Source: Candidatus Eiseniibacteriota bacterium
GTDB taxonomy: Bacteria > Eisenbacteria > RBG-16-71-46
DNA: 64,000 nt
Reading direction: 5' to 3'
Assembly (NCBI GenBank): GCA_031364845.1
Contig: JANLWX010000231.1
Location: 23,531-87,530, forward strand
The notes under the pieces were generated by a model. The model did no database searches. It had not been told where the DNA came from and saw nothing but the letters and a program-made list of their open reading frames with translations. Positions 911 through 33,737 of the stretch are shown in pieces (position 1 is the first letter of the stretch; every line of letters starts with the position of its first letter). Made by a program: the position numbers and the translations under genes.

Positions 911-987
911 TGGTGCGCCCGACAGGAATCGAACCTGTAACCTTTAGCTCCGGAGGCTAACGCTCTATCCAATTGAGCTACGGGCGC
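911..987 (-). tRNA. tRNA-Arg (anticodon CCG)
   Basis: Reverse complement reads GCGCCCG-TA-GCTC-AATTGGATA-GAGC-G-TTAGC-CTCCGGA-GCTAA-AGGTT-ACAGG-TTCGATT-CCTGT-CGGGCGC-A-CCA. The cloverleaf is complete, with 7-bp acceptor stem, TTCGATT T-loop and encoded CCA. Confidence 0.9.
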
Positions 988-5390: not shown

Positions 5391-6874
5391 CCGTTCCCCC
5401 GGTCACTCGATTCGGTGCCGCGCTCCGCGCGTTGCACCGCGAGCCACAGCGCGCGGCCCTTGTTCATGGTCTCGTCCCATTCGTGCTCGGGTTCCGAGTC
5501 GGCCACGATGCCGGCGCCGACGCCCCAGTGAGCGTGCCCGTCGGCGTACACCAGCGTTCGGATGGCGATGCACAGGTCGAGATTGCCATGATAGTCGAAG
5601 TGCCCGACCGCACCCGCATACACGCCGCGGCGCACCGGCTCGAGCGCATCGATGATTTCCATCGCGCGCACGCGCGGCGCGCCCGAGACGGTTCCGGCGG
5701 GAAAGCACGCACGCACGACGTCGAGCGGTGTGAGGCCCGCTTTCGCGCGGCCGCGCACGTTGGACACCAGATGCATCACCTGCGAATAGCGCTCGACGGT
5801 CATGTACTCGTTGGTTTCGACGGTGCCGTACTCGGCGACGCGGCCGATGTCGTTGCGTCCGAGATCGACCAGCATCACGTGCTCGGCGCGCTCTTTCTCA
5901 CTCGCGAGCAGTTCTTCTTCGAGGCGGCGGTCCTCATCGGGCGTCCGCCCGCGCGGGCGCGTTCCGGCGATTGGCCGCACTTCGACGACACTGTCGGTGC
6001 GCCGCACCAGCACTTCGGGCGAGGATCCGACCAGCGAGAAACCGTCGAGGCGCAGGAAGTACATGTAAGGCGACGGGTTCGTGACGCGCAGCGCGCGGTA
6101 GGCTTCGAATGCGGGATGCGTGACGCGGGCACTCATGCGATGGCTGAGGACGACCTGGAAGATGTCGCCGGCGCGGATGTGCTCCTTCGCCTGTTCGACC
6201 GCTTCGAGGAACTGCTCGCGGCTCGCCGAGGATTCGGGCTCGGCCGTGTCGCCTCCGCCCGGAGGTTCGGCCCACGCGAGCGGCGCGCGCAGGCGCGCGA
6301 CTTCGGCATCGAGCCGCGTGACGGCCGCGTCGTAGGCGGCGTCGGCGTCGGTTCCCATGCGGGCGTGGGTCACGACCTTGAGCGTGTGGGTCAGGTTGTC
6401 GAACACGCTGACCACATCGCCGAACACGAACACGGCATCCGGGAATTCGAGGTCGCGCTTCGCGCGCTCGGGAAGCTTCTCGATCCAGCGCACCGCGTCG
6501 TATCCGAAGAATCCGACCGCGCCGCCGCAGAAGCGCGGCAGGCCCGGGAGTGCGACCGCCTGGTGTTCGTCGAGCAGTGCCGCAAGTTCTTCGAGCGGCG
6601 GGCGCTTGCCCTTGGTGGTCTTGCCGTCGCGGTGGATCTCGCTCGTGTCGCCGCGCGCGGTGAACACGAGCGACGGGCGGCTGCCGAGCAGTGAATAGCG
6701 GCCCCATTTCTCGCCGCCTTCGACGCTCTCCAACAAGAAAGCAAAGCCGCCATCGTCGATCTTGCGGAACGCGGAGACCGGAGTGTCGTGATCGGCGAAC
6801 ACTTCGCGGTAGACCGGGACCAGCTTGCCGCCGCGGGCAAGAACCTTGAATTCGGATCGCGACGGAATGATCAC
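5387..6874 (-). CDS. trpE: anthranilate synthase component I
   Basis: Track ORF 495 aa with chorismate-binding domain motifs (LLES, IFQVVLS, GAVGY). The start overlaps the recN stop by 4 bp. Confidence 0.9.
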
Positions 6875-8556
6875 GCGCGGCCTCCGACCAGTAGTTCCTT
6901 CGCCTGGCGGCGTGTGGTCTCGGTGGTCCTGCTCCCCGCGAGCATGCGTGCGATCTCCTCGATGCGATCGTCGCCTTCGAGCGGCTCGATGCGCGCGACG
7001 GTGCGCTTTAGGGACACGTGCTTGACCACGCGCAGGTGATGCGCGGCGAACGCCGCGATGATCGGAAGGTGGGTCACGCAGAGGATCTGGCGATGTCGCG
7101 ACAGGCCGACGAGCCGTTCGCCGACCGCCTGTGCAACGGTGCCGCCGATCCCGGAATCTACTTCATCGAAAATCAGAACGTCAACGCGATCTTGGGTTTG
7201 CAGCGCTGACTTGAGGGCCAGCATGACCCGCGAAATCTCGCCTCCCGAGGCGATCCGCCGCAGGGGTTTCGCGGGTTCCCCGCGGTTCGCGGTGAACTGG
7301 ATCTCCACACGGTCGAGCCCGTTCGCGAGGAACTCGGGGTCAGGGCCGGTGCCGCCCGCCACTTCGAACGCGAGTGCGGCGTGCTGGAATCCCAGCGGCT
7401 GCAGCTCACGCGTGAGCCGAGCGCTCCACTCCCGCGCCGCCGCCGCCCGCGCGCGCGACAACGCGCGGCCCGCGGTGAGGCACGCGGAACGCGCGCGCTC
7501 GTCTTCGGCACGCGCGGCGAGCAACGCTGCGTCCCCGCCGTCGCCGAGCGCCAGTCGTGCCGCGAGCTCCGCGTGCCACGTGATCAGCTCGTCGATGCTG
7601 CGCCGGTATTTCCGCGAAAGCCGCGCGATCTGCTCACGCCGCGACTCGATCGTTTCGAGCGTGGCCGGATCGACATCGAGGCGCTCGAGATAGTCGGACA
7701 ACGCGCGCACCGTCTCGCCGGTCGCGATGCGCGCCTCGTCGAGCGGCCCGACGATGCTCACGAGCCCCGGATCGATCGCCGCCGCCTGATCGAGTGCGTG
7801 TGCGGCGGCATCGAGCGCGTGCGTCGCCGCGTCGTCGTCTTCGGACAGTCGCGCGAGCGCATGCGACGCGCGCTCGCGCAACCGGTCGGCATGCGCGAGC
7901 CGCGCGGCCTCTTCACGCAAACGCACGTCCTCACCCGGCGCGAGCTGCGCCGCATCGATCTCGCGCGCCGCCTCCTCCATCTCGCCGCGCTCGTCTTCGT
8001 AGGTTCGCATCGACGTTTCGAGCTGTTCGAGCTCGGCGCGTGCGCGACGGTGCTCGGCGAGGGCGGCCACGTAGCGATCGCGCGCCTCGCCGAGACCCGC
8101 GAGGCGGTCGAGCGTCTCGATACCGGCGTCGGGACGCAGCAGGCTCTGGTGCTCGTGCTGGCCGTGGAGATCGGCGAGGCGCTCGCCGAGCTGCTTCAAG
8201 GCGCCGAGCGTGACCGGCGACTGGTTGACGATCGCGCGGCTCTTGCCGGTGGCGGCGATCTCGCGGCGCACGATTACGGTCTCGCCGTCGAACTCGATGC
8301 CCCACGCTTCGAGCAGTGCCGCGATCTCACGCGCGACGTCGGACGCCACGCGGAATTCGCCTTCGACGGTCGCGGTGCGGGCTCCATCGCGCACGAACTC
8401 GGCGTCCGCGCGTTCTCCGATGAGGAGATCCACCGCCTGGACGAGCAGCGATTTGCCCGAGCCGGTCTCCCCCGTGATCACGTTGAGTCCGGCCCCGAAC
8501 ACGATCTCGGCGCGGTCGATGAGCGCGAGATCCCGAAGCGTCAGACGCTCGAGCAT
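6871..8556 (-). CDS. recN: DNA repair protein RecN
   Basis: Track ORF 561 aa with a Walker A (GETGSGKS) at the N-terminus, a long coiled-coil middle, and C-terminal DEVDSGIGG signature. Confidence 0.9.
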   Translation of the reverse strand: MLERLTLRDLALIDRAEIVFGAGLNVITGETGSGKSLLVQAVDLLIGERADAEFVRDGARTATVEGEFRVASDVAREIAALLEAWGIEFDGETVIVRREIAATGKSRAIVNQSPVTLGALKQLGERLADLHGQHEHQSLLRPDAGIETLDRLAGLGEARDRYVAALAEHRRARAELEQLETSMRTYEDERGEMEEAAREIDAAQLAPGEDVRLREEAARLAHADRLRERASHALARLSEDDDAATHALDAAAHALDQAAAIDPGLVSIVGPLDEARIATGETVRALSDYLERLDVDPATLETIESRREQIARLSRKYRRSIDELITWHAELAARLALGDGGDAALLAARAEDERARSACLTAGRALSRARAAAAREWSARLTRELQPLGFQHAALAFEVAGGTGPDPEFLANGLDRVEIQFTANRGEPAKPLRRIASGGEISRVMLALKSALQTQDRVDVLIFDEVDSGIGGTVAQAVGERLVGLSRHRQILCVTHLPIIAAFAAHHLRVVKHVSLKRTVARIEPLEGDDRIEEIARMLAGSRTTETTRRQAKELLVGGRA

Positions 8557-8644
8557 GAAAACTCCAACCCGGGGGCGAGGATCAGGAAATGCATCGGGTG
8601 AGTCTAGCGACTCGACTGTTCGGCGGCCAACATGGGCGCGGGCG

Positions 8645-9243
8645 TCAGGGAAGCTCGCGAATCCGGTGCAGCGGAAGGATGACCTGAGTCGCGCGCCCGA
8701 GCACGCGATCGCGCGGCGTTAGCTCGGCGAGCGTGTCGCCGGAGGCGCGGCCGAGCCGTCCCGTGACAAGGACGCGGTCGCCGATCGCGATCGTCTCTCC
8801 CGCCCGGGCGGCCGAGACCGTCGCGGAGTCGAGTTGAACGAAGACCTCAGGACGCGCCACGCCCGGACCGACCACGAACACCTGTTGGAGATCCGTGGCT
8901 CCATCACCGCGCGCAACCCACACGATCTGGCCGGGTTCGAGCGAAGCCACATCGCGGCGCACGACCACCACGTCGTCATGGCGGAGCGGTGCCGCATCGG
9001 ACGCGCGCGCTTCGACCAGCGCGTAGGGAGTTCCGGCGAGCACGAAGTGGGCGGCGAACACCAGCACGCCGCCCCAGTGATAGAAGAATACGACCAGCCC
9101 GACCAGCGTCCAGAACACGGTGCTGCCCGGAACTCCGATGTCGGGTTCGATCGGGTCGGGGGTCGGTTGCACGCCGGGCTCGAGCGGCTCACCGGACCCG
9201 GGCTTCGAAACGCCTTCGGGCTGCGCGGCCGCTCTGCGGCGCA
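8645..9243 (-). CDS. hypothetical membrane-anchored protein (one TM helix plus beta-rich C-domain, possibly NfeD-like OB fold)
   Basis: Track ORF 8645..9988. Only the 3' third looks like real coding sequence. I chose the ATG at 9241-9243 (MRRRAAAQPEG...TVFWTLVGLVVFFYHWGGVLVFAAHFVLA...). It lies between nadK and recN on the same strand. Confidence 0.4.
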
Positions 9244-9285
9244 TGCGCCGTTCGGTCCACGATCCGCGCTCGATGATTCGCAAGG

Positions 9286-10164
9286 CTACATACTCCGCTT
9301 CTTGCTCCCCTGCCAGCCGAGCTTCTTCTGCAGCGACCGCGCGAACGGCCGGTCGGGATTCTGATACATGAGCACTGACGTGCGGTCGAGATGGATGCGC
9401 ACGTCGTCGCCGACCGCGAGGTCGACGATCTCCTGGCCGTCGAACAGCAGCACGGTGCGATCGAAGGATCCGAGCACCTTCACGTCGAGTTCCGCCCCCG
9501 GTCCCAGCACCAGCGGACGATTGCCGATCGAGTGCGCACACACCGGAGTCACCACCATCGCATCGACGTCGGGTGCGAGCACCGGTCCCCCGGCCGACAG
9601 TGAGTACGCAGTCGAGCCCGCCGCGGTCGCCGCGATCAATCCGTCGGCGACCAGATGTCCGAGGTCGCTGCCGAGAGCCGCGAGTCTCAGATGGACGGCG
9701 GCATAACCGCCCGCGCCCTTGATCACCGCGTCGTTCATCGCCACTCCGCGCGCGACCGTGCGGCCGCGCCGGCGCACGAGTGCGCTCACCATTCGGCGCG
9801 GCACCACGGGCCACGTGCGGTCGAGCGCGTGTTTGAGGGCGGCGGCGATCTCTCGGTTCTCGGCGACGGTGAGAAAGCCGAGGCCGCCGAGGTTGATCGG
9901 CAGCAGTGCGGCCTTGGTCCCGGCGATCGCGCGTCCACCGACGAGCACCGTGCCGTCGCCGCCGAGCGTCACCAGGATCTCGCACCACTCGGCGAGTTCC
10001 TTGAGCGGGAGGCCGTCTTCGCCCATTTCACCGGCGAGGCGGGCATCCGCGCGGACCTCGATCTTGCGCCGCGTGAGCATGGAGCGCAGCCGCTGGGCCG
10101 CGAGCCGGATCCCCGGCCTCGAAGTGTGACCGAGAATCCCGACGCGCCGGATGCGCGCGCTCAT
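9286..10164 (-). CDS. nadK: NAD(+) kinase
   Basis: Track ORF 9286..10335. I chose the ATG at 10162-10164 (MSARIRRVGILGH...), which overlaps the dxs stop as ATGA. Motifs GGDGT and NxGxLGFL are present. Confidence 0.85.
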   Translation of the reverse strand: MSARIRRVGILGHTSRPGIRLAAQRLRSMLTRRKIEVRADARLAGEMGEDGLPLKELAEWCEILVTLGGDGTVLVGGRAIAGTKAALLPINLGGLGFLTVAENREIAAALKHALDRTWPVVPRRMVSALVRRRGRTVARGVAMNDAVIKGAGGYAAVHLRLAALGSDLGHLVADGLIAATAAGSTAYSLSAGGPVLAPDVDAMVVTPVCAHSIGNRPLVLGPGAELDVKVLGSFDRTVLLFDGQEIVDLAVGDDVRIHLDRTSVLMYQNPDRPFARSLQKKLGWQGSKKRSM

Positions 10165-12047
10165 GTGTACTGGCGTTGGGCGATCTGGACCCAGTCGAGC
10201 ACGCGGCGCGCGATCCCCGACGCATCGAGCCCGGCCTGTTCGAGCAGTTCGTCGCGCTTGCCGTGGAGCATGAACTGCTCCGGCATCGCGATGCGATGGA
10301 GCGGCGTGCCCGACAGTCCGTTGCGGTCGAGGCATTCGCTGACCGCACTGCCGAAGCCGCCCATCGGCACGTTCTCTTCGATCGTGACGATGCGCCCGAC
10401 GGATTTCGCGAGACCGATGATCGCCTTCTCATCGAGCGGGGCCACGAAGCGCGCATCCACCACGGTCGCGGAGATGCCGTCGTGGTCGAGCATCTCGGCG
10501 GCCTTGAGAGCCGGCAGCACCATGGTGCCGATCGCGAAGATCGCGACATCGCCTCCGGCGCGCAGCTGTTCCGACACGCCGATCGCGAGCTGCTTCGGCG
10601 CGCGCTTGGGAAGTTCGTCCTCGGGAATGTTGGCGCGCGGGAACCGCACCGCGACCGGACCGTCGTAGCGGATGCCGGTCCACAGCATGTCGCGCAGTTC
10701 CTCGCCATTGCGCGGCGCCATCACGACCACGCCGGGGATCATTCGCAGAAAACCGAGATCGAAGCATCCGTGCTGCGGCGCACCGTCTTCGCCGACGATG
10801 CCGGCACGGTCGACGGCGAGCAGCATGTGCAGGTCCTGGACCGCGACGTCGTGAATGATCTGATCGAACGATCGCTGGAGGAACGTCGAGTAGATGGCGG
10901 TGATCGGTCGCATGCCGCCGGCCGCGAGTCCGGCCGAATACGTGACGGCGTGCTCCTCGGCCATGCCGACGTCGAAGAAGCGCTCGGGGAACTGCTTCGA
11001 GAACGGCTTGAGCCCGGTGTTGTCGGTCATCGCCGCGGTCACCGCGACGACCTCGGGAATCTTCTTCGCGATCTCGAGTGCGGTTTCGCCGAACACGTGC
11101 GTGTAGGTCTTGCGCGCGCTCTTCGAAGTCGTGCCCGTTTCGGGGTCGAACACGCCGATGCCGTGGAAGGTGGTCGCATCGCCTTCGGCCGGCTTGTAGC
11201 CCTTGCCCTTGCGGGTCACGACGTGCAGCAGTGTCGGTCCTTCGAAACGCTTGAGGTCGCTCAGCGTCTCCTCGAGCACGTCGAAGTCGTGGCCGTCGAT
11301 CGGACCGAAGTACTTGAGCCCGAGTTCTTCGAACAGGATGCCGGGCACCACGAGATTCTGGAGCCCTTCCTTGACGCGCCGGGCACCTTCGCGCGCCCGC
11401 AGCGCCTTCGGCAGCTTGCCCAGCAAGTCGTAGACGTCGGACTCGAAGCGGCGGTAGATGCGGCTCGTCGTCAGCTTGGTGAGATAGCGGTGGATCGCGC
11501 CGATGTTGGGCGAAATGCTCATCTCGTTGTCGTTCAGGATCACGATCATCCGTTTGCCGAGCTCACCGACGTTGTTGAGCCCTTCGAACGCCATGCCTCC
11601 GGTGAGCGCTCCGTCGCCGATCACCGCGATCACATGGTGATTCTCGCCCTTCAGATCGCGCGCGACGGCCAATCCGAGCCCGGCGGAGATCGAGGTGCTG
11701 CCGTGGCAGGTGCCGAACGGATCGTGCTCGCTCTCCTGGCGCCGCGGATAGCCGGCGATGCCGCCGAGCGTGCGCAGGGTGTCGAACTGCTCGTAGCGTC
11801 CGGTGACGAGCTTGTGCGGATACGACTGGTGCCCGACGTCCCAGATGATGCGGTCGGTCGGCGAGTCGAAGACGCGGTGAAGCGCCAGCGTCAGTTCGAT
11901 CACCCCGAGATTGGGAGCCAGATGCCCGGCGCGGCGCGCCACGGTCTGGATGATCACGTGGCGCATCTCGACCGCGAGCGCTTCGAGCTCGGGCCGCGTG
12001 AGCGCCTTGACGTCGGCGGGCGAATGAATCCGTTCGAGCAGGGTCAT
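10161..12047 (-). CDS. dxs: 1-deoxy-D-xylulose-5-phosphate synthase
   Basis: Track ORF 628 aa. TPP-binding motif GDGALTGGMAFEGLNN is present, with transketolase-like domains throughout. Confidence 0.95.
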   Translation of the reverse strand: MTLLERIHSPADVKALTRPELEALAVEMRHVIIQTVARRAGHLAPNLGVIELTLALHRVFDSPTDRIIWDVGHQSYPHKLVTGRYEQFDTLRTLGGIAGYPRRQESEHDPFGTCHGSTSISAGLGLAVARDLKGENHHVIAVIGDGALTGGMAFEGLNNVGELGKRMIVILNDNEMSISPNIGAIHRYLTKLTTSRIYRRFESDVYDLLGKLPKALRAREGARRVKEGLQNLVVPGILFEELGLKYFGPIDGHDFDVLEETLSDLKRFEGPTLLHVVTRKGKGYKPAEGDATTFHGIGVFDPETGTTSKSARKTYTHVFGETALEIAKKIPEVVAVTAAMTDNTGLKPFSKQFPERFFDVGMAEEHAVTYSAGLAAGGMRPITAIYSTFLQRSFDQIIHDVAVQDLHMLLAVDRAGIVGEDGAPQHGCFDLGFLRMIPGVVVMAPRNGEELRDMLWTGIRYDGPVAVRFPRANIPEDELPKRAPKQLAIGVSEQLRAGGDVAIFAIGTMVLPALKAAEMLDHDGISATVVDARFVAPLDEKAIIGLAKSVGRIVTIEENVPMGGFGSAVSECLDRNGLSGTPLHRIAMPEQFMLHGKRDELLEQAGLDASGIARRVLDWVQIAQRQYT

Positions 12048-12505
12048 TAGAAGATCCAGTGCCAGAATACGGCGGTCAGGACGCCCAGCACCGCCCCGAC
12101 GAATACTTCGAGGGGGGTGTGCCCCAGTAGCTCCATGAGTTTCTGCGCGCCGACTTCGGGATGCTTGAAATGTTCGTCGATCAGGCGGTTCAGAATCTTC
12201 GCCTGCCGGCCTGCGGCACGTCGTAAGCCCGCAGCATCATACATAACGATCAGGCTGAAATACAGAGTGGCCGCGAACACCGGCGAGCGGAAACCTTCCT
12301 GGATTCCGAGCGAAGTCGACAGTGCGGCGACCGAAGCGGCATGCGAACTCGGCATGCCGCCGGTTTCGACGAAACGCCGCAGATTCCACCGGCGTGTCAG
12401 GAAATAGACCAGGAATCCCTTGAAGCCCTGAACGGCGAACCCGACCCCCAGCGCGAGCCAGAAGGCGATATTCGGAAGAATGTGGAATTCAGAGTTCGTG
12501 GCCAT
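12047..12505 (-). CDS. divergent PAP2 (DUF212/acid-phosphatase-like) membrane protein
   Basis: Track ORF 152 aa with motif GGMPSSHAA, which is typical of the DUF212 family, and a hydrophobic profile. It overlaps the dxs start by 1 nt. Confidence 0.7.
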   Translation of the reverse strand: MATNSEFHILPNIAFWLALGVGFAVQGFKGFLVYFLTRRWNLRRFVETGGMPSSHAASVAALSTSLGIQEGFRSPVFAATLYFSLIVMYDAAGLRRAAGRQAKILNRLIDEHFKHPEVGAQKLMELLGHTPLEVFVGAVLGVLTAVFWHWIF

Positions 12506-12559
12506 TGTCGTGGGTTTATCGGCGCGCGACGGCGGCAGCGTGGGCGATTTCGCAGGGCA

Positions 12560-13525
12560 TCATCGCTCCCGCTCGGCGACGGTCAGCATCAAGCCGGCGA
12601 GCTTATGGGCACTGGGGCCGAATCCGGTGACGCGACCCACGGCGGCCTGAAACAGCCGCGCGGCATCGAAGCGCGCGCGCTCCTCGCCCACCGCCCGCGG
12701 GTAAGTCGCCTTGCCCCGGGCATCGTCGGTCCCGGTGCGCTTGCCGAGCCGCGCGAGCGTGGAGACCCGGTTCAGGAGATCGTCATGGATCTGAAACGCG
12801 AGACCCAGCTCGTGGCCGCACACTTCCAGCGTTCGCAAGGCCGCGGCGTCGGCGTCGGCCGCGATTCCGCCCAGCACCAGCGACGCGGCTACCAGCGCGC
12901 CGGTCTTGCGCCGGTGGATGTCGCGGACCTGAGCGCCCGTCACGCGGCGGCGCTCGGCCTCGATGTCGAGCACCTGCCCGCCCACGAGCTCCCGGCTGCC
13001 GGCCGCGCGCGCGAGCACCTGCACCGCCTCGACCACGCGTACTGCCGGCACACCCTGGTCGGCGAGCCGCGCGACGTGTTCGAACGCGAGTGCCAGCAGC
13101 GCATCGCCGGCAAGCACGCCGAGCGCTTCTCCGTACTTCTTGTGCGTGGTGAGCCGGCCGCGGCGATAGTCGTCGTCGTCCATCGCGGGCAGATCGTCGT
13201 GGACCAGCGAGAACGCGTGCACGCACTCAACCGCGACGGCGGCAGGCAGCGCCCGCTGCCAGCGCCCGCCCGCGGCCTCGCACGCCGCGAGCACCAGCAG
13301 CGGACGCATGCGTTTGCCGGGCGACAGCGCGCTGTAACGCACCGCCGCATGGAGCCGTGGCGGCGAGAGCGTCGCCGCCGGCAGCGCGGCGGCGAAATAC
13401 CGCTCGAACTCTGCGCGCATGCGGTCGATCCCGGCCGGCAACGGTGCGTTCGCGGCGCGCGACACGGCCGAAGCTCCGGAGGGAACGCGACGGCGCACGC
13501 GCCGGATGGGAGTCGCGACGCTCAA
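12560..13525 (-). CDS. ispA: (2E,6E)-farnesyl/geranyl diphosphate synthase (polyprenyl synthetase)
   Basis: Track ORF 321 aa. It has FARM (LVHDDLPAMDDDDYRRG) and SARM (FQIHDDLLN) motifs. The start is either 13525 (ATGA overlap with xseB) or the internal ATG at 13418-13420 (MRAEFERYF...). The classical xseB-ispA-dxs synteny is present. Confidence 0.85.
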   Translation of the reverse strand: MSVATPIRRVRRRVPSGASAVSRAANAPLPAGIDRMRAEFERYFAAALPAATLSPPRLHAAVRYSALSPGKRMRPLLVLAACEAAGGRWQRALPAAVAVECVHAFSLVHDDLPAMDDDDYRRGRLTTHKKYGEALGVLAGDALLALAFEHVARLADQGVPAVRVVEAVQVLARAAGSRELVGGQVLDIEAERRRVTGAQVRDIHRRKTGALVAASLVLGGIAADADAAALRTLEVCGHELGLAFQIHDDLLNRVSTLARLGKRTGTDDARGKATYPRAVGEERARFDAARLFQAAVGRVTGFGPSAHKLAGLMLTVAERER

Positions 13526-13833
13526 AACGGCAGCTCGCCCTCGGGCGGCTCGTTCGCCTGCGAGTCGAATTCCATCGGCTGCGTGACCGGAGCCGAATCT
13601 TCGTCGCCCGATTCGATCAGCCGCTCGATGCGCTTCTCGGCTTCGTCGAGCTGATGCGTGAGGCGCTTCGACAGCTTCATGCCTTCTTCATAGCGCTCGA
13701 TCGACTCGTCCAGCGTCAGCTCTCCCCGCTCGAGTTCATCGACGATCGTGCGCAGTCGCTCGAGCGCGGCCTCGAAGCTGAGATTGGGGCCGCCGGTCGT
13801 CGCGTCCGGTACTGCGGGCTTCCTAGCGGGCAT
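13522..13833 (-). CDS. xseB: exodeoxyribonuclease VII small subunit
   Basis: Track ORF 103 aa containing FEAALERLRTIVDELERGELTLDESIERYEEGMKLSKRL, a typical XseB sequence. Confidence 0.85.
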   Translation of the reverse strand: MPARKPAVPDATTGGPNLSFEAALERLRTIVDELERGELTLDESIERYEEGMKLSKRLTHQLDEAEKRIERLIESGDEDSAPVTQPMEFDSQANEPPEGELPF

Positions 13834-15193
13834 CAGGTCCTCCGGATCGCACCGTCTCGATGCGGGCGTCGGCTTCTCCGCGCGCGAACTCGATCGTCAC
13901 GCGCTCACCCACGGTCAGCGTCTCGACGGTGCGCAGCACACTACCGTCGGCGCCCCGCGCCAGGCAATAGCCGCGCTCGAGCACGAGGCGCGGGGACAGC
14001 GCGCGCAGCTGGTCCACGCACGACGTCACCTGGCGACGGCGGTCGTGCAGTGCCCGGACCAGCGCCGGTGCCAGGGCGGCTTCGAGCTCGCGGGGTTCGT
14101 CGCTGAGCGCGGCCAGCGTGCGCGGCCACTCGCGCAGCGCGTAGCTCGCGGCGAGATGCTCGATCGACTGGCGGACGCTCCCCAGGCGGGAGCGCAGTGC
14201 GAAGCGCATGCGCAGCGTCGACTCGCCGACCGTCGTATGCCAGCCCTCGAACAGCTGCTGCAGGCGCTGGAAGCCGTATTTCTGCGTGAGGTGCATGAGC
14301 GCCTGGCGCCGCGATTCGAGCCGGCGTTCGAGCGCGCGACGGCTGCGCCACGTGAGGTGCCCGAGATCCTCGAGCAGTTTTACCCGCTCGCACACCACGA
14401 GCTCCGCGGCGTTGGACGGTGTGGCGGCCCGCACGTCGGCCGCGGCGTCGGCGAGCGTCCAGTCCACTTCGTGTCCGACCGCCGAGACGATCGGGATCGC
14501 GGAGCCCGCGATCGCACGCACCACGACTTCCTCGTTGAATGCCCACAGATCCTCGATCGAGCCGCCGCCGCGTCCGACAATCAGGACATCGACCGCCCCG
14601 TGGCGATTGAAACGCCGGATCGCATCGGCAATCTCGAGTGCGGCACCCGGTCCCTGCACGCGCACCGGCGCGAACACGACCGCGATGCCGGGCATGCGCC
14701 CGCGCAGCACCTTCACGATGTCGCGGATCGCGGCCCCGACCGGCGAAGTCACCACTCCGATCCGCCGCGGGTAGCGCGGCAGTGGACGCTTGCGCGCGGG
14801 ATCGAACAGGCCTTCGGCGGTGAGGCGCTGCTTCAGCTGTTCGAGCTGCAGCAGCAATGCTCCGAGGCCGGCCGGGCGCATCTGCTTGACGGAGAACTGG
14901 TAGTTGCCGCGCGGCTCGTAGACCGTGATGTCGCCGAACGCTTCGATCTCGAGGCCTTCCTTCGGCTCGAATCCGAGTCCGCTCGCGGTGCGCGACCACA
15001 TCACGCAGTCGAGTGCCGCGTCCTTGCCGTCCTTGAGCTTGAAGTAGAGATGCCCGCTGTCGGCGCGCTTGAAACCCGACAGCTCGCCCTTGACCCACAC
15101 GCCGGTGAATTGCTCGGCGAGCGCCTCCTTGATGGCGCGCGTCAGCTCGAGGACCGAAAGGACCCGGTCGTTCCCGGCCGGTGCGAGGCTCAT
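13823..15193 (-). CDS. xseA: exodeoxyribonuclease VII large subunit
   Basis: This is the 3' part of track ORF 13823..16708. I chose the internal ATG (MSLAPAGNDRVLSVLELTRAIKE...), which overlaps the ymdB-folD stop as ATGA. It has an OB-fold N-domain and the XseA catalytic region. Confidence 0.85.
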   Translation of the reverse strand: MSLAPAGNDRVLSVLELTRAIKEALAEQFTGVWVKGELSGFKRADSGHLYFKLKDGKDAALDCVMWSRTASGLGFEPKEGLEIEAFGDITVYEPRGNYQFSVKQMRPAGLGALLLQLEQLKQRLTAEGLFDPARKRPLPRYPRRIGVVTSPVGAAIRDIVKVLRGRMPGIAVVFAPVRVQGPGAALEIADAIRRFNRHGAVDVLIVGRGGGSIEDLWAFNEEVVVRAIAGSAIPIVSAVGHEVDWTLADAAADVRAATPSNAAELVVCERVKLLEDLGHLTWRSRRALERRLESRRQALMHLTQKYGFQRLQQLFEGWHTTVGESTLRMRFALRSRLGSVRQSIEHLAASYALREWPRTLAALSDEPRELEAALAPALVRALHDRRRQVTSCVDQLRALSPRLVLERGYCLARGADGSVLRTVETLTVGERVTIEFARGEADARIETVRSGGPDAR

Positions 15194-16887
15194 CGCGCGG
15201 CTTCTTCTCCGATGGTCTGGCGCGCGGCGGCGAGCACGAGGTTCGACACCACCATCGCCACCGTCATCGGACCCACACCACCCGGAACCGGCGTCAGCGC
15301 ACCCGCAACCTCGATCACCGACTCCGCGTGCACATCGCCGCAGAGTCGTGAGCCGCTGCGCTTTTCGGGAGCGGCGACGCGATGCACACCGACGTCGACG
15401 ACCGTCGCACCCGGCTTCACCCACTCGGCGGTGACCGCTTCGGGCCGGCCCATCGCGACCACCAGCAGATCCGCCTCGCGCGCGAGACGCTGGAGCGCGG
15501 GCCCGCTCGCGCTGTGACCGATCGTCACCGTCGCATCGACGCCTTTGGTCGAGAGCAGCGTCGCGACCGGGCGCCCGACGATCGAGCTGCGCCCCAACAC
15601 GACCGCGTGGGTGCCCGCGAGCGGCACCTGATGAAAGCGCAGCAGCTCGAGAATGCCGCGCGGTGTGCACGGCACGAGTGACGGAAGTCCGAGGCTCAGG
15701 CGTCCGGCGTTCACCGGATGGAAGCCATCGACATCCTTGCCCGGGGGGATTGCATCCAGCACTTCGTCCGCGCGCGCGGGGGCGGCCAGCGGAAGCTGGA
15801 CGAGGATGCCGTGAACGTCCGGGTCGTCGCCGAGCTGGCGCACTTTCGCGACCACGGTACGCGTGTCGGTGCCGGCGGGCAGCGAGATGCGGCGGACCTC
15901 GATGCCCGCTTCCTTGCATGCGTCGTCCTTCTTGCGCATGTAGATCTGGGAGGCCGGATCGTCCCCGACCGAGACCAGCGCCAGGCACGGTTCGACGCCC
16001 CCCGCGCGCAGGCGCGACACTTCGATCTGCGCCGCGTAGCGCACGCTCGCGGCCGGATCGTCGCCGCGCAGCAGCCGCGCCTGCCCGGCGGGCGTCGCGT
16101 CGGGCGTGTAGCGCATCTGGATGCGCTCGATCGAGTGCGCCTTGCCGGTCGCGGGATCGACGCGGACCACGGCGCCGTTCAGGCGCAGGTCGCCATCCGA
16201 CGGCGACAGCCGCTCGTTCATGAGCGTCGTGAAACGTCGCAGTGCCGCGACGCGGTCCATGCCGATCACCGAATCGAAGCCGCCCGTCATGCCGGCGTCG
16301 GTCAGGTACGCGGTGCCTTTGGGCAGCACGCGCTCGTCCGCTGTCTGCACGTGCGTATGCGTGCCGAACAGCGCGCTCACGCGGCCGTCGAGGTTCCAGC
16401 CCATGGCGACCTTCTCGGCGGTGGTCTCGGCGTGGAAATCGAGCACGATGATCTTCGCCTGATCGCGCAGCGCTTCGAGCGTGCGCTCGATCGAGGCGAA
16501 CGGCGAATCGATCTCCTTCATGAACACGCGGCCGAGCATGCTGATCACGGCGACCGGCGTGCCGTCCTGCGCGCGGAACACGCCAAAGCCCTGCCCCGGC
16601 GTCGTGGCCGGCATGTTGGCGGGCCGCACCAGTCGCGGTTCCTCGGCGAGATAACCGTGGCTCTCCTTCTTGTCCCACAGATGATTGCCGCCGGTGAGCA
16701 CATCGCATCCGGCCGCGAACAGTTCCGCCGCGCCGTCACGCGTGACACCGAACCCGCCCGCCGAGTTCTCGGCGTTGCAGATCACGAGACCGATTTCGTG
16801 GCGCCGGCGCAGCTCGGGCAGCAGCGCTTTCACCACCTTGCGGCCGGGTGAACCCACGACATCGGCGATGAACAGGATGTTGAGCAA
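15190..16887 (-). CDS. in-frame fusion of YmdB-like metallophosphoesterase (2',3'-cNMP phosphodiesterase family, TIGR00282) and bifunctional methylene-THF dehydrogenase/methenyl-THF cyclohydrolase FolD
   Basis: Track ORF 15190..17553 is continuous. The upstream part is Arg-rich junk. The likely start is the TTG at 16885-16887, preceded by AGGAGtccgg, giving MLNILFIADVVGSPG, which closely matches the B. subtilis YmdB N-terminus. The YmdB-like domain is ~265 aa and ends at ...GKAHSIERIQ. It continues without a stop into MRYTPDATPAGQARLLRGDDPAAS...LVSVGDDPASQIYMRKK...VDGFHPVNAGRL...PCTPRGI...TPVPGGVGPMTVA, which is FolD. Confidence 0.75.
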   Translation of the reverse strand: MLNILFIADVVGSPGRKVVKALLPELRRRHEIGLVICNAENSAGGFGVTRDGAAELFAAGCDVLTGGNHLWDKKESHGYLAEEPRLVRPANMPATTPGQGFGVFRAQDGTPVAVISMLGRVFMKEIDSPFASIERTLEALRDQAKIIVLDFHAETTAEKVAMGWNLDGRVSALFGTHTHVQTADERVLPKGTAYLTDAGMTGGFDSVIGMDRVAALRRFTTLMNERLSPSDGDLRLNGAVVRVDPATGKAHSIERIQMRYTPDATPAGQARLLRGDDPAASVRYAAQIEVSRLRAGGVEPCLALVSVGDDPASQIYMRKKDDACKEAGIEVRRISLPAGTDTRTVVAKVRQLGDDPDVHGILVQLPLAAPARADEVLDAIPPGKDVDGFHPVNAGRLSLGLPSLVPCTPRGILELLRFHQVPLAGTHAVVLGRSSIVGRPVATLLSTKGVDATVTIGHSASGPALQRLAREADLLVVAMGRPEAVTAEWVKPGATVVDVGVHRVAAPEKRSGSRLCGDVHAESVIEVAGALTPVPGGVGPMTVAMVVSNLVLAAARQTIGEEAAR

Positions 16888-16907
16888 CCGGACTCCTCGT
16901 GGTTTCG

Positions 16908-18470
16908 CTACTTGGCGTAGTCGACCGCGCGCGTCTCGCGGATCACGGTGACGCGGATCTGGCCGGGATATTCGAGTTCCTTCTCGATGCGGCGCGCGAT
17001 GTCGCCCGCGAGGCCCTGCGCGCGGGCGTCGTCGACCTTGCTGTGCTCGACCATGATGCGCACTTCGCGGCCGGCCTGGATCGCATAGGACTTCTCGACG
17101 CCGGCGAACGCGTTGGCGATCTTCTCGAGCGCTTCGAGCCGCTTGATGTAGATCTCGAGGCTCTCGCGCCGCGCCCCCGGTCGCGCCCCGGACATCGCGT
17201 CGGCCGCCGACACCAGCACCGGCCACAGGCTGCCACCCGCGTAGTCGTCGTGGTGGTATCCGATCGCTTCCAGCACCGGTTGCGGTTCGCCGTAGCGCGT
17301 GGCGACTTCCATCCCGAGCGCGGGATGGCTGCCTTCGTGGTCGTGGTCGATCGCCTTGCCGATGTCGTGCATCAACCCCGCGCGCTTCGCGGTTTTCTGA
17401 TCCATGCCGATCTCCGCCGCCATCATGCCGGCGAGGTGCGCGACTTCGATCGAGTGGTTGAGGATGTTCTGCCCGTAGGAGGTGCGGTAGTGGAGCCGGC
17501 CGAGCAGGTAGACGAGTTCGGCGTGCATGCCGTGAACGCCGATCTCGAGGCACGCGGCCTCGCCGAACTCCCGGATCTTGCCTTCGACCTCGGTCTTCAC
17601 CTTGGCGACCACTTCCTCGATCCGCGCCGGATGGATGCGTCCGTCGGCGACCAGCCGCTCGAGCGCGATGCGCGCGATCTCGCGGCGAACCGGATCGAAG
17701 CCCGACAGGATCACGGCCTCGGGCGTGTCGTCGATGATCACGTCGATCCCGGTCACGATCTCGAACGAGCGGATGTTGCGGCCTTCGCGCCCGATGATGC
17801 GCCCCTTCATCTCGTCGCTCGGCAGGTGGACGACCGAGACCGAAGAGTCCGAGACGTGATCGGCGGCGTAACGCTGCATCGCGAGAACGATGATCTTGCG
17901 CGCCTCGCGTTCGCCGTTGCGCTGGGCGTTGTCGCGGATCTCGGTCGTGCGGCGCGCGGCCTCCGAGCGGGCTTCTGCCTCGATCGAGGAGATCAGCTGC
18001 AGTCGCGCGTCCTCGGCGGTGAGTCCGGCGATGCGCTCGAGCCGGCTGCGCTGCTCCTGGACCACCTGATCGAGTTCCTGCGTGCGCGAGGTGACCGCGG
18101 TTTCGCGCTGTGAGAGATCGTGCTCGGAACGTTTGAGATCGCGGTCCTTCTTCTCGATCACCTCGACGCGCCGGCTGAAGGCGACTTCCTTCTCCTGAAA
18201 CGCGCGCTCGGCCGCGAGCTGGTTGTTGCGTGCTTCGAGCATCTCGCGTTCGAGCTGCTGCTTGAGCCGCAGCGCCTCCTCGCGGCTCTCGAGCACGGCG
18301 TTGCGCTTGAGCGCCTCGGCCTCGCGCTGGGCCTCTTCGGTGAGCGAGACCGCGCGGCGTTCTGCGCCCAGCACCTGCGAGCGGCCGAGCTGGGCGCGAA
18401 GGAAGAAGCCGATCACAAACGACACGACGGCACCGAGGACGATGCCGCCGATCAGGGTCACGTCAGACAT
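16908..18470 (-). CDS. rny: ribonuclease Y
   Basis: Track ORF 520 aa with an N-terminal TM helix, coiled coil, KH domain ([13 protein letters not shown]) and HD domain ([15 protein letters not shown]...MHDIGK). The rny-ymdB adjacency matches that in Firmicutes. Confidence 0.9.
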
Positions 18471-18534
18471 TCATTCTCCCTGAGCATCCGCGTCCGGCGT
18501 TTGCGGCAACGCCGGGCGGCGGACGCCCGGGCAG

Positions 18535-18747
18535 GGAAAAATCCCCGCCAAATACCGTGTGCTTGTGGGGTTCTTGAGACCTGGCGAGCCAGGTGGGCGT
18601 CCCTACGACCGGGTCGGCACTCCCCGGATTCCGGCGCCATACCGAACGCGGAATGCCGGAGCACAACGTCGCCGGCCACCAGAACACCCAGAACGAAAGT
18701 ATTGGTTCAAGAACTCCGAGGCATCACGAGCACGGCAGGGAAAACGC
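18535..18747 (-). ncRNA. ssrS: candidate 6S RNA (ssrS)
   Basis: This ~210-nt transcript would lie on the minus strand in the 300-nt gap immediately downstream of zapA, which is the ssrS position in E. coli. The 5' UUUUCCCUGCC pairs with the 3' GGCGGGGAUUUUU as a closing stem. GUUCUUGA pairs with UCAAGAAC on either side of a large central unpaired region, and a GC-rich terminal stem (GGUGG...CCACC) follows. A UUGAACCAA segment resembling E. coli 6S is present. Confidence 0.5.
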
Positions 18748-18773
18748 TGCGGCCTCTGATTCCGTTCGCCGCC

Positions 18774-19085
18774 TTACTTTCCTGGCGCTCCTTCGAGCAC
18801 TTCGTCCAGGACGGCGGTGAGATGCGCCGTGCGCGTGCTGAGGTCGCGCAGATCGCGATCCTCGGTTTCGCGCCGTGCGCGCTCTTTGAACAGCTCGTCG
18901 GCAATATTGAGAGACGCGAGAATCGCCACTTTGGAGAGCGAGGCCACCGGCAGCTTTTCAGTGATCTCGCGCATCTTGCGGTCCACATACGCGGCGACCT
19001 CCAGGATGTACTCCTGGTTCGCTTCGCCGCGTATCGTGTACGAGTGGCCGAAGATCTCGACCTGAACGACGTTCTTGGCGAGCAT
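18774..19085 (-). CDS. zapA: cell division protein ZapA
   Basis: Track ORF 103 aa, MLAKNVVQVEIFGHSYTIRGEANQEYILEVAAYVDRKMREI..., matching the ZapA family pattern. Confidence 0.75.
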   Translation of the reverse strand: MLAKNVVQVEIFGHSYTIRGEANQEYILEVAAYVDRKMREITEKLPVASLSKVAILASLNIADELFKERARRETEDRDLRDLSTRTAHLTAVLDEVLEGAPGK

Positions 19086-19263
19086 GGCGCCTCCGTCTTT
19101 GCAGCATACTTCCCTGCGCTCTGATCCCGTTGAATTGAGGCCGCAGGCTGCTGAAAAACCCGATTGCTGCGTTGCTCGGTCGCTCCTCGCTTCGACGTAT
19201 CCTTCGGATACGCCTCGCTCGTCGCTTCCCTCGCGCCTTGCACTCGGCTTCTTCAGCAGCCTG

Positions 19264-19560
19264 CTAAGCTTCGAGCTTCTCGAGCTTCTTGAGCATCGAC
19301 TCGACGCGCGAAGCGACGTCTCGACGTTCGCTGTGCCAATCCTTCTGCTCGCGACGCAAGGTCCCGAGTTCCTGCAGCAGCGCCGCCACGTCCTGACCCT
19401 GAAGTCGCTGCTCCAATTCCGCGGACCGTTGCAAGAGCTCGTCGCGCTCCTGCGTGGCGCGCTGGGCTTCGTCGCGGAGCTTCTGTACCAGCTGGGCTGC
19501 CCTCTCGACCCGCTCGCTCAGCCGGTCGAGATCCGTCTGCATCAACGCGGTCTCGGTCAT
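19264..19560 (-). CDS. coiled-coil protein (ZapB-like cell division factor?)
   Basis: This is the 3' part of track ORF 19264..20049. The ATG at 19558-19560 overlaps the pheT stop as ATGA. The 98-aa product has pure heptad coiled-coil character (MTETALMQTDLDRLSERVERAAQLVQKLRDEAQRATQERDELLQRSAELEQRLQ...). Confidence 0.5.
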   Translation of the reverse strand: MTETALMQTDLDRLSERVERAAQLVQKLRDEAQRATQERDELLQRSAELEQRLQGQDVAALLQELGTLRREQKDWHSERRDVASRVESMLKKLEKLEA

Positions 19561-33661: not shown

Positions 33662-33737
33662 TGGTGGGCGATACTGGACTTGAACCAGTGACCCCTTGCT
33701 TGTCGAGCAAGTGCTCTACCAACTGAGCTAATCGCCC
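33662..33737 (-). tRNA. tRNA-Val (anticodon GAC)
   Basis: Reverse complement reads GGGCGAT-TA-GCTC-AGTTGGTA-GAGC-A-CTTGC-TCGACAA-GCAAG-GGGTC-ACTGG-TTCAAGT-CCAGT-ATCGCCC-A-CCA. It lies 127 nt upstream of thrS. Confidence 0.9.

What the first reader, a model, noticed from the sequence alone, without database searches (positions are those of the whole stretch)
15190..16887. YmdB-like metallophosphoesterase and FolD are encoded as one uninterrupted reading frame
The YmdB-family domain (MLNILFIADVVGSPG...GKAHSIERIQ) runs without a stop codon directly into a complete FolD (MRYTPDATPAGQARLLRGDD...). Either this is a genuine bifunctional fusion of an RNase-Y-associated phosphodiesterase to a folate enzyme, or FolD is also made separately from the internal in-frame ATG. 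The rny-ymdB pairing is conserved in Firmicutes, but I know of no described YmdB-FolD fusion.
Basis: seen in the sequence. Interest (0 to 1): 0.6.

Follow-up and report, generated by a model that had tools for sequence, protein, structure and literature searches.

The report
Conserved YmdB–FolD fusion gene in Eisenbacteria
Two normally separate enzymes, an RNase-Y-linked phosphodiesterase (YmdB) and the folate enzyme FolD, really are joined into one protein here; the join is inherited by a whole uncultured bacterial phylum and arose when the stop codon between two neighbouring genes was lost, so it is real but a fairly ordinary kind of event.

Summary
Window 16887..15190 (minus strand) is one 565-codon frame. 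It holds a complete YmdB domain (aa 5-256), a 12-14 aa Pro/Ala/Gly-rich linker, and a complete FolD (aa ~270-558).

It is not an assembly error:
- At least 120 protein clusters (67-95% identical, 559-580 aa) have the same architecture, some on contigs of 0.45-4.2 Mb.
- Every intact locus at 60% identity or more among the 80 genome loci returned (about 35 to 40 species-level genomes, almost all labelled Candidatus Eisenbacteria) keeps the frame open.

Relatives at 38-55% identity have ymdB, a stop codon, a 0-100 nt spacer and a folD with its own ATG. These include Calditrichota, Ignavibacteriota, KSB1, Glassbacteria and one deep "Eisenbacteria" MAG.

The fused genes form one clade in both the YmdB and the FolD trees. 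The fusion is therefore a single stop-codon loss between adjacent genes of an rny-ymdB-folD-xseA-xseB-ispA cluster.

All YmdB metal ligands and all FolD catalytic residues are invariant.

No description of this fusion was found in the searchable literature, and one source names a family member only as a metallophosphoesterase. Interest is modest.

The parts
15190..16887 (-). ymdB::folD fusion gene, 565 codons plus TGA stop; TTG start at 16887..16885
   Evidence: a single frame with full YmdB and FolD Pfam matches; at least 120 full-length homologous clusters with the same architecture.
16893..16898 (-). Shine-Dalgarno-like GAGGAG, 5 nt upstream of the TTG start
   Evidence: Read directly from the sequence. 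One search finds SD-like motifs at the starts of many orthologues.
16120..16875 (-). YmdB-type metallophosphoesterase domain (aa 5-256). Metal ligands are D9, E40, N41, N68, H152, H177 and H179.
   Evidence: PF13277, 339.9 bits. (TIGR00282, 279 bits against a cut-off of 254). (alignment to PDB 4B2O). (these residues are invariant in 32 sequences).
16078..16119 (-). Interdomain linker (aa 257-270, QMRYTPDATPAGQA), including the non-conserved in-frame ATG (Met258) at 16116..16114
   Evidence: variable in sequence and length; the variable core is 7-21 aa and Pro/Ala/Gly-rich, with GC3 0.89; pLDDT below 50 at residues 264-267; no SD motif before the ATG.
15217..16071 (-). FolD (5,10-methylene-THF dehydrogenase / 5,10-methenyl-THF cyclohydrolase): catalytic domain aa 273-387 and NAD(P)-binding domain aa 390-557. 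Key residues are Y316, K320, Q364, D387 and the motif GRSxxVGRP.
   Evidence: PF00763, PF02882. (alignment to human 1A4I maps Y52 and K56 to Y316 and K320). (these residues are invariant).
16908..18470 (-). rny (RNase Y), directly upstream, ending 20 nt before the fusion gene
   Evidence: 520-aa ORF. (71-91% identical orthologue upstream of the fusion in nearly all Eisenbacteria loci). (the RNase_Y_N/KH/HD gene precedes ymdB in unfused relatives).
13823..15193 (-). xseA (exonuclease VII large subunit). Its ATG overlaps the fusion gene's TGA as ATGA.
13522..13833 (-). xseB (exonuclease VII small subunit), overlapping the end of xseA
12560..13525 (-). ispA-like polyprenyl diphosphate synthase, overlapping the xseB stop. 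It is followed by dxs (12047..10161).

Best explanation
This is a genuine, vertically inherited gene fusion. It appears to be characteristic of the candidate phylum Eisenbacteria (NCBI: Candidatus Eiseniibacteriota).

Ancestrally, ymdB and folD were adjacent, co-oriented, closely spaced genes in an rny-ymdB-folD-xseA-xseB-ispA cluster. In one ancestor the ymdB stop codon was lost. Translation then ran through the short spacer into folD. The former YmdB tail, the spacer and the FolD N-terminus became a short, flexible Pro/Ala/Gly-rich linker.

The product is one 565-aa polypeptide with two independently folded, catalytically intact modules. The N-terminal module is a di-metal YmdB-type 2',3'-cyclic-nucleotide phosphodiesterase. 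The C-terminal module is a FolD NADP-dependent methylene-THF dehydrogenase/methenyl-THF cyclohydrolase. The two are necessarily made in equal amounts.

What is shown: the architecture, its conservation, its single origin, the intact active-site residues and the disordered linker.

What is inferred: that both activities are retained, that the protein stays uncleaved, and that the fusion was fixed mainly because the genes were already neighbours in one operon rather than because the two chemistries are coupled.
For: - Uninterrupted frame with two full-length domain matches.
- At least 120 clusters at 67-95% identity, 559-580 aa, with the same three Pfam domains. Some lie on contigs of 4.16 Mb, 967 kb and 452 kb.
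- In 80 species-level genome loci, every intact locus at 60% identity or more has an open frame of 559-624 codons. Every locus at 38-55% identity has a stop after about 258-269 codons, followed by folD with its own ATG (M-x-A-x-I-I-D-G-K).
- The 30 fused taxa are monophyletic in neighbour-joining trees of the YmdB part, the FolD part and both together. An unfused 'Eisenbacteria' MAG (L038) is sister in the YmdB and combined trees.
- The synteny rny-fusion-xseA-xseB-ispA is conserved in the clade. Glassbacteria and L037/L038 show rny-ymdB|folD-xseA-ispA.
- An exhaustive HMMER scan of 1.84 billion cluster representatives found one full-length fused representative, plus one fused fragment at 52% identity from a separate cluster and a second, frameshifted fused fragment. 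No independent fusion elsewhere was seen.
- The linker varies in length and sequence, is always in frame, and has coding-like GC3 of 0.89.
- The seven YmdB metal ligands and FolD residues Y316/K320/Q364/D387 plus the NADP motif are invariant.
- The AlphaFold2 model has two confident domains, a low-confidence linker, and pTM 0.55 against mean pLDDT 83.5.
Against: - There is no protein-level evidence (no proteomics, no enzyme assay). All organisms are uncultured MAGs.
- Whether these genomes also carry a stand-alone folD could not be tested. Only about 13 kb per locus and this 64 kb window were available, and the window holds no second copy.
- The FolD half falls below the high curated cut-offs of the NCBIfam FolD models (best 313.9 vs 396 bits), so it is a somewhat divergent FolD.
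- One clade member (L039) shows a frameshift and one (L020) an in-frame stop near the 3' end of the match. These are probably assembly noise or alignment overhang.
Confidence: 0.88

Rival explanations
1. Assembly or sequencing artefact: a missed stop codon or an indel at the junction falsely joins two separate genes in this assembly.
For: Distant relatives do have a stop at exactly this place. High-GC DNA tolerates long open frames.
Against: The same open frame is found in about 35 independently assembled species-level genomes and at least 120 protein clusters from NCBI, ENA, JGI and Logan, including contigs of 0.45-4.2 Mb. Linker lengths differ, yet all remain in frame.
Confidence: 0.01
2. 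Dual expression: besides the fusion protein, free FolD is translated from the internal in-frame ATG (Met258, 16116..16114). The gene would then act as two overlapping cistrons.
For: An ATG sits precisely at the domain boundary in this window and in its 95%-identical relative P0001. In unfused relatives folD starts within a few codons of this position.
Against: The position is I, V, L or R in most fused orthologues. The 20 nt upstream of the ATG hold no SD-like motif, whereas the true start has GAGGAG. In 36 fused loci, candidate starts near the junction are sporadic, and only one locus (L019) has SD-like motifs upstream of candidate starts.
Confidence: 0.07
3. Polyprotein: the fusion is translated as one chain, then cleaved in the flexible linker, releasing ordinary YmdB and FolD.
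For: The linker is exposed and predicted disordered, so it would be accessible to proteases.
Against: The linker holds no conserved sequence that could serve as a specific cleavage site. No dedicated protease is evident in the conserved neighbourhood.
Confidence: 0.05
4. Functionally driven ('Rosetta stone') fusion: YmdB and FolD act together, for example tethering one-carbon or nucleotide supply to the RNase Y RNA-turnover machinery. On this view the ymdB-folD adjacency seen in several phyla reflects that coupling.
For: - The ymdB-folD adjacency is seen in Calditrichota, Ignavibacteriota, KSB1, Glassbacteria and others, with and without rny.
- Another folate gene (5-formyl-THF cyclo-ligase) lies next to rny-ymdB in L082.
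- The fusion has been retained across a whole clade.
Against: - Adjacency is not universal. The closest unfused YmdB representatives are followed by a PKD-domain gene or by spoVS.
- The set of adjacent loci was biased by how the tool ranks matches.
- The variable, featureless linker and the low pTM suggest no fixed interdomain interface.
- No known biochemical link between the two reactions was found in the literature.
Confidence: 0.1

Closest known systems
Bacillus subtilis YmdB (PDB 4B2O; Pfam PF13277, TIGR00282), a 2',3'-cyclic-nucleotide phosphodiesterase encoded downstream of rny
   Same: - Aligns from end to end with the N-terminal half (query residues 3-258 against chain residues 2-256, E 4e-75).
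- All seven metal ligands are present.
- The gene sits directly downstream of rny, as in Firmicutes.
   Different: B. subtilis YmdB is a stand-alone 264-aa protein ending about 8 residues after the conserved IERI motif (from my own knowledge of the sequence). Here that tail is replaced by a linker into FolD. The physiological role in this phylum is unknown.
Bacterial FolD and the human DC301 domain (PDB 1B0A, 8WFC, 1A4I): bifunctional methylene-THF dehydrogenase/cyclohydrolase
   Same: Both Pfam domains are present at full length. The Y-x-x-x-K catalytic pair, the Q and D residues, and the GxSxxVGxP and PVPGGVGPMT motifs are conserved.
   Different: - The usual N-terminus M-x-A-x-IIDGK is replaced by ARLLRGD preceded by the YmdB domain.
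- 'LPLP' has become 'LPLA-P'.
- The score is below the NCBIfam FolD equivalog cut-offs.
Eukaryotic trifunctional C1-THF synthase (MTHFD1), and other FolD fusions such as the Clp_N-FolD protein P0171
   Same: These show that the FolD module tolerates being part of a larger multidomain chain. P0171 shows an N-terminal fusion is possible.
   Different: In MTHFD1 the partner is another folate enzyme, fused at the C-terminus, with obvious pathway logic (established knowledge). Here the partner is a nucleotide phosphodiesterase at the N-terminus, with no known pathway link.
Unfused ymdB|folD gene pairs of Calditrichota, Ignavibacteriota, KSB1 and Glassbacteria
   Same: Same gene order and orientation, with a very short spacer (0-100 nt). 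rny is often upstream and xseA sometimes downstream.
   Different: A stop codon ends ymdB at about 258-269 codons, and folD has its own ATG. These are two proteins.

Membership tests
YmdB-like metallophosphoesterase (PF13277 / TIGR00282) | Full-length profile match above the curated cut-off | tested here: met
   PF13277: 339.9 bits against a cut-off of 27, profile positions 1-253 of 253. TIGR00282: 279.1 bits against a cut-off of 254.15.
YmdB-like metallophosphoesterase (PF13277 / TIGR00282) | Seven di-metal ligands (B. subtilis D8, E39, N40, N67, H150, H175, H177; the residue list is from my own knowledge of the 4B2O structure paper) | tested here: met
   The alignment to 4B2O maps them to D9, E40, N41, N68, H152, H177 and H179. 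All are invariant in 32 fused sequences.
YmdB-like metallophosphoesterase (PF13277 / TIGR00282) | Gene immediately downstream of rny | tested here: met
   rny ends 20 nt upstream. The arrangement is conserved in the clade.
YmdB-like metallophosphoesterase (PF13277 / TIGR00282) | 2',3'-cyclic-nucleotide phosphodiesterase activity | not testable with these tools
   Requires an enzyme assay.
FolD (methylene-THF dehydrogenase / methenyl-THF cyclohydrolase) | Both Pfam domains (PF00763 and PF02882) at full length and above their cut-offs | tested here: met
   105.1 bits (cut-off 32.8) and 194.9 bits (cut-off 27). Profile coverage is 1-115 of 115 and 1-159 of 160.
FolD (methylene-THF dehydrogenase / methenyl-THF cyclohydrolase) | NCBIfam FolD equivalog or subfamily cut-off reached | tested here: not met
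   The best match is NF010785 at 313.9 bits against a cut-off of 396. All the FolD models listed are below their cut-offs. These are narrow, lineage-specific models. This lowers confidence in exact equivalence, not in family membership.
FolD (methylene-THF dehydrogenase / methenyl-THF cyclohydrolase) | Catalytic Tyr and Lys (human Y52/K56), Gln and Asp, and the NADP-binding GxSxxVGxP motif | tested here: met
   Y316/K320 are mapped by the alignment to 1A4I. Q364, D387, G432-R433-S434..G438-R439-P440 and PVPGGVGP are invariant.
FolD (methylene-THF dehydrogenase / methenyl-THF cyclohydrolase) | Dehydrogenase and cyclohydrolase activities; dimer formation | not testable with these tools
   Requires biochemistry.
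Genuine translational gene fusion (as opposed to an artefact or adjacent genes) | Open frame across the junction in independent genomes, with in-frame linker indels | tested here: met
Genuine translational gene fusion (as opposed to an artefact or adjacent genes) | Single evolutionary origin, with unfused outgroups | tested here: met
   Neighbour-joining trees. Unfused outgroups. Only one full-length fused 50%-identity representative among 1.84 billion.
Genuine translational gene fusion (as opposed to an artefact or adjacent genes) | The full-length polypeptide exists in cells | not testable with these tools
   Requires proteomics or heterologous expression.

The most novel reading that the evidence does not exclude
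The fusion, together with the ymdB-folD adjacency seen in several phyla, may record a real functional partnership. On this reading YmdB's still-unclear cellular role would be tied to one-carbon and nucleotide metabolism. The fusion protein could bring FolD to the RNase Y / RNA-turnover machinery, or couple sensing of cyclic-nucleotide RNA breakdown products to the supply of 10-formyl-THF or methylene-THF for purine, thymidylate and initiator-tRNA synthesis. The evidence does not exclude this. The adjacency spans Calditrichota, Ignavibacteriota, KSB1, Glassbacteria and Eisenbacteria, and a second folate gene lies next to rny-ymdB in another lineage. Nothing tested here points to a fixed interdomain interface.
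Probability: 0.1. Interest if true: 0.6.

Novelty: new variant of a known kind. Interest (0 to 1): 0.3.

Why it matters
1. Annotation. One source names a family member (P0067) only as 'TIGR00282 family metallophosphoesterase', and JGI names others that or '2',3'-cyclic-nucleotide 2'-phosphodiesterase'. Here TIGR00282 passes its cut-off and the NCBIfam FolD models do not. The FolD function of a whole candidate phylum can therefore be invisible to name-based metabolic reconstruction, and folate or one-carbon pathways may wrongly look incomplete.

2. Evolution. This is a clean case of fusion by stop-codon loss between operon neighbours, with unfused sister lineages. The trait is usable as a marker for this clade of Eisenbacteria.

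3. Function. YmdB's physiological role remains poorly defined. A conserved fusion and adjacency partner gives one concrete, testable lead, though a weak one.

None of this overturns current understanding. Both domains are well-known enzymes, and such fusions are common.

Tried and rejected
- Assembly artefact: rejected because of cross-genome conservation.

- Wider fusion across the other phyla: at first seemed to show fusions in Calditrichota, Ignavibacteriota, Bacteroidota and others, with query residues 2-555 matched. Translating the loci showed these have a stop codon and a separate folD ATG. The tblastn alignment had simply run through the stop.

- All 40 unfused loci have ymdB and folD in the same frame. 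I considered programmed read-through or a recent split. I attribute it instead to ranking bias: a single high-scoring alignment through the stop puts in-frame pairs into the best 80 of 573.

- Odd representatives that seemed to cross the junction (P0168, P0198, P0265, P0267, P0171) turned out to be FolDs with long N-terminal extensions that look like organellar targeting sequences, plus one Clp_N-FolD protein. None is a YmdB fusion.

- Internal initiation: examined codon by codon in 36 loci and not supported.

- Promoter and terminator scan of 12000-19500: nothing inside the fusion gene on its own strand, and counts were no higher than in shuffled sequence.

- Literature searches (YmdB + FolD + fusion; YmdB + RNase Y + phosphodiesterase; YmdB + methylenetetrahydrofolate; Eisenbacteria + genome) found no description of the fusion. 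'FolD' as a search term mostly matched the word 'fold'.

- A second folD copy was looked for only in the 64 kb window, and none was found. A genome-wide check was not possible.

- No fold search was run. The sequence matches to solved structures were already unambiguous.
Full report
**Observation**

On the minus strand of the window an open frame starts at a TTG (16887..16885). A GAGGAG sits 5 nt upstream, and the start lies 20 nt after the TAG stop of rny. The frame runs 565 codons to a TGA at 15192..15190, which overlaps the ATG of xseA as ATGA.

Pfam places three domains in that one frame:
- A complete YmdB domain at aa 5-256 (profile 1-253 of 253, E 1e-101).
- The FolD catalytic domain at aa 273-387.
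- The FolD NAD(P)-binding domain at aa 390-557.

TIGR00282 passes its curated cut-off. The window is about 69% GC and is full of long meaningless ORFs. The open frame by itself would therefore prove nothing, but two end-to-end domain matches in the same frame do. The only correction is that the first codon is TTG; the in-frame ATG (Met258) lies at 16116..16114.

**Is it an artefact?**

No. A search of 5.8 billion proteins returned at least 120 clusters of 559-580 aa, 67-95% identical, all carrying PF13277 + PF00763 + PF02882. They come from NCBI, ENA, JGI and Logan assemblies, including contigs of 4.16 Mb, 967 kb and 452 kb.

A scan of one genome per species (GTDB) gave 80 loci. I translated each from the start of the match. 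Every intact locus at 60% identity or more has an uninterrupted frame of 559-624 codons. These are about 35 to 40 species-level genomes, almost all labelled Candidatus Eisenbacteria (NCBI phylum Candidatus Eiseniibacteriota). The exceptions are contig-end truncations and one frameshifted locus (L039).

In an alignment of 32 fused proteins the segment between the domains varies in sequence and in length (12-38 aa) but is always in frame. Across 34 fused sequences (the window plus 33 loci) its variable core is 7-21 aa and rich in Pro, Ala and Gly. It keeps a coding-like third-position GC of 0.89, against 0.935 in the domains.

**What the relatives show**

The more distant loci (38-55% identity) at first looked fused, because the tblastn match covered query residues 2-555. 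They are labelled Caldithrix/Calditrichaeota, Ignavibacteriota, KSB1, Glassbacteria, a 'Gemmatimonadota' MAG, several 'Bacteroidota' MAGs and one deep 'Eisenbacteria' MAG, HKST-UBA01.

Reading the junctions shows otherwise:
- ymdB ends with a stop after about 258-269 codons (...ERINLP* or ...VIFPAFG*).
- A spacer of 0 to about 100 nt follows.
- folD then begins with its own ATG and the canonical M-x-A-x-I-I-D-G-K.

In the fused clade the same positions read ...RLQIPYxxxxxGGARLLRGDEPA.... The old YmdB tail, the spacer and the FolD N-terminus have become the linker.

All these unfused pairs happen to be in the same frame. I attribute this to ranking: an alignment that can run through a single stop scores about twice as high, and so reaches the best 80 of 573. 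I could not verify this.

**Synteny**

- Eisenbacteria: rny - ymdB::folD - xseA - xseB - ispA.
- Glassbacteria and L037: rny - ymdB | folD - xseA - ispA. L038 shows the same order from ymdB onward; its contig starts 195 nt before ymdB, so rny cannot be seen.
- Calditrichota and KSB1: rny - ymdB | folD.
- Ignavibacteriota: ymdB | folD, without rny.

In the window the cluster continues with dxs, a NAD kinase-like gene and recN. From my own knowledge, this resembles the B. subtilis folD-xseA-xseB-ispA-dxs...recN region. The rny-ymdB pair resembles the Firmicute recA-rny-ymdB arrangement, which is also seen in L085. The fusion therefore sits at the seam between two old gene clusters.

The adjacency is not universal. 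The closest unfused YmdB representatives are followed by a PKD-domain gene or by spoVS.

**Single origin**

Neighbour-joining trees were built separately from the YmdB columns, the FolD columns and both together. In each, the 30 fused sequences form one clade with no unfused member inside. The unfused HKST-UBA01 locus (L038) is sister in the YmdB and combined trees.

An exhaustive HMMER scan of 1.84 billion 50%-identity cluster representatives found only one full-length fused representative (P0121, 781 bits). It also found a 5'-truncated fused fragment at 52% identity on a 2.3 kb contig (P0122) and a second, frameshifted fused fragment (P0123). The best stand-alone hit scored 285 bits. An independent full-length fusion elsewhere would be expected to score roughly double that, and none appeared among the 150 best hits.

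Other proteins that seemed to cross the junction proved to be FolDs with long N-terminal extensions that look like organellar targeting sequences, plus one Clp_N-FolD protein.

**Are both halves functional?**

Alignment to B. subtilis YmdB (PDB 4B2O) maps its metal ligands D8, E39, N40, N67, H150, H175 and H177 onto D9, E40, N41, N68, H152, H177 and H179. Alignment to human DC301 (1A4I) maps Y52 and K56 onto Y316 and K320. These residues are invariant in all 32 aligned fused proteins. So are Q364, D387 and the GRSxxVGRP and PVPGGVGP motifs.

The FolD half is somewhat divergent. It stays below the narrow NCBIfam FolD cut-offs. This may explain why one source names a family member (P0067) only 'TIGR00282 family metallophosphoesterase'.

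An AlphaFold2 model built from the 32-sequence alignment has mean pLDDT 83.5 but pTM 0.55. Residues 264-267 have pLDDT below 50. This indicates two well-folded modules joined by a flexible tether, with no confidently predicted interface. No solved structure spans both halves.

**Internal initiation**

The ATG exists in this window and in its 95%-identical relative. The position is I, V, L or R in most orthologues. Its upstream 20 nt hold no Shine-Dalgarno-like motif, although the true start has GAGGAG. Among 36 fused loci, candidate starts near the junction are sporadic, and SD-like motifs precede them in only one locus, L019. Internal initiation is therefore not a conserved property. It cannot be ruled out as a minor event in this strain.

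**Mechanism and meaning**

The best-supported account is a stop-codon loss between two adjacent, tightly spaced genes, fixed once in an ancestor of most known Eisenbacteria. It gives a two-module enzyme whose halves work independently and are made in equal amounts.

A functional coupling between YmdB and one-carbon metabolism is not excluded. Points in its favour:
- The ymdB-folD adjacency is seen in several phyla.
- A 5-formyl-THF cyclo-ligase gene lies beside rny-ymdB in L082.

Points against it:
- The linker is featureless.
- No interdomain interface is predicted.
- The adjacency is not universal.

I put that reading at about 10%.

**Comparison with what is known, and novelty**

Both domains are clear members of well-studied families. 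The combination is not described in the literature I could search. It exists in public databases only as unremarked, half-named entries.

It is a new domain architecture made of known parts, and it appears characteristic of one candidate phylum. Its practical value is for annotation, because FolD is hidden under a phosphoesterase name. It also gives a modest lead to YmdB function. Interest: 0.3.

Noticed in passing
window 18538-18744 (-): A 6S/SsrS RNA gene (Rfam RF00013, 64.4 bits against a gathering score of 46.4) lies in the gap between a zapA-like ORF (19085..18774) and rny. The local order is zapA - ssrS - rny - ymdB::folD - xseA - xseB - ispA. In E. coli, zapA-ssrS is followed by the folate gene ygfA (5-formyl-THF cyclo-ligase) (from my own knowledge). 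Here the next genes are rny and a FolD fusion.
   Followed up: partly
L082 573-4061: The closest unfused YmdB representative (P0127, 52% identity) sits in zapA - 5-formyl-THF cyclo-ligase - rny - ymdB. This is a second, different folate-enzyme gene next to the rny-ymdB pair in another lineage.
   Followed up: no
L036-L079 (about 40 unfused loci), junctions listed: In every unfused locus returned, ymdB and folD are in the same reading frame, often separated by a single stop codon (for example L060...FPEF*MAQIIDGK). This is probably a ranking bias of the locus search, but it was not verified. If it is real, it could indicate repeated fusion and fission, or stop-codon read-through.
   Followed up: partly
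window 6871-12047 (-): Downstream of ispA the minus strand carries dxs (12047..10161), a NAD kinase-like ORF (about 10335..9286) and recN (8556..6871). This order resembles the B. subtilis folD-xseA-xseB-ispA-dxs...recN region, which is notable conservation for such a distant phylum.
   Followed up: no
L006 (DATJGS010000039.1): A contig labelled 'Candidatus Saccharimonadaceae bacterium' carries a 70%-identical fusion gene with the Eisenbacteria synteny and 72% GC. The bin is probably mislabelled or contaminated.
   Followed up: no
L030 6001-7857; L019; L024; L032: Some clade members have much longer fusion proteins (624 aa in L030) or linkers of 21-25 aa. The junction tolerates sizeable in-frame insertions.
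   Followed up: no
P0171 (443 aa): A different N-terminal FolD fusion: two Clp_N-like repeats followed by a complete FolD, found among the 50%-identity representatives.
   Followed up: no
window 914-987 (-) and 33665-33737 (-): Two tRNA genes were detected by the Rfam scan of the whole window.
   Followed up: no
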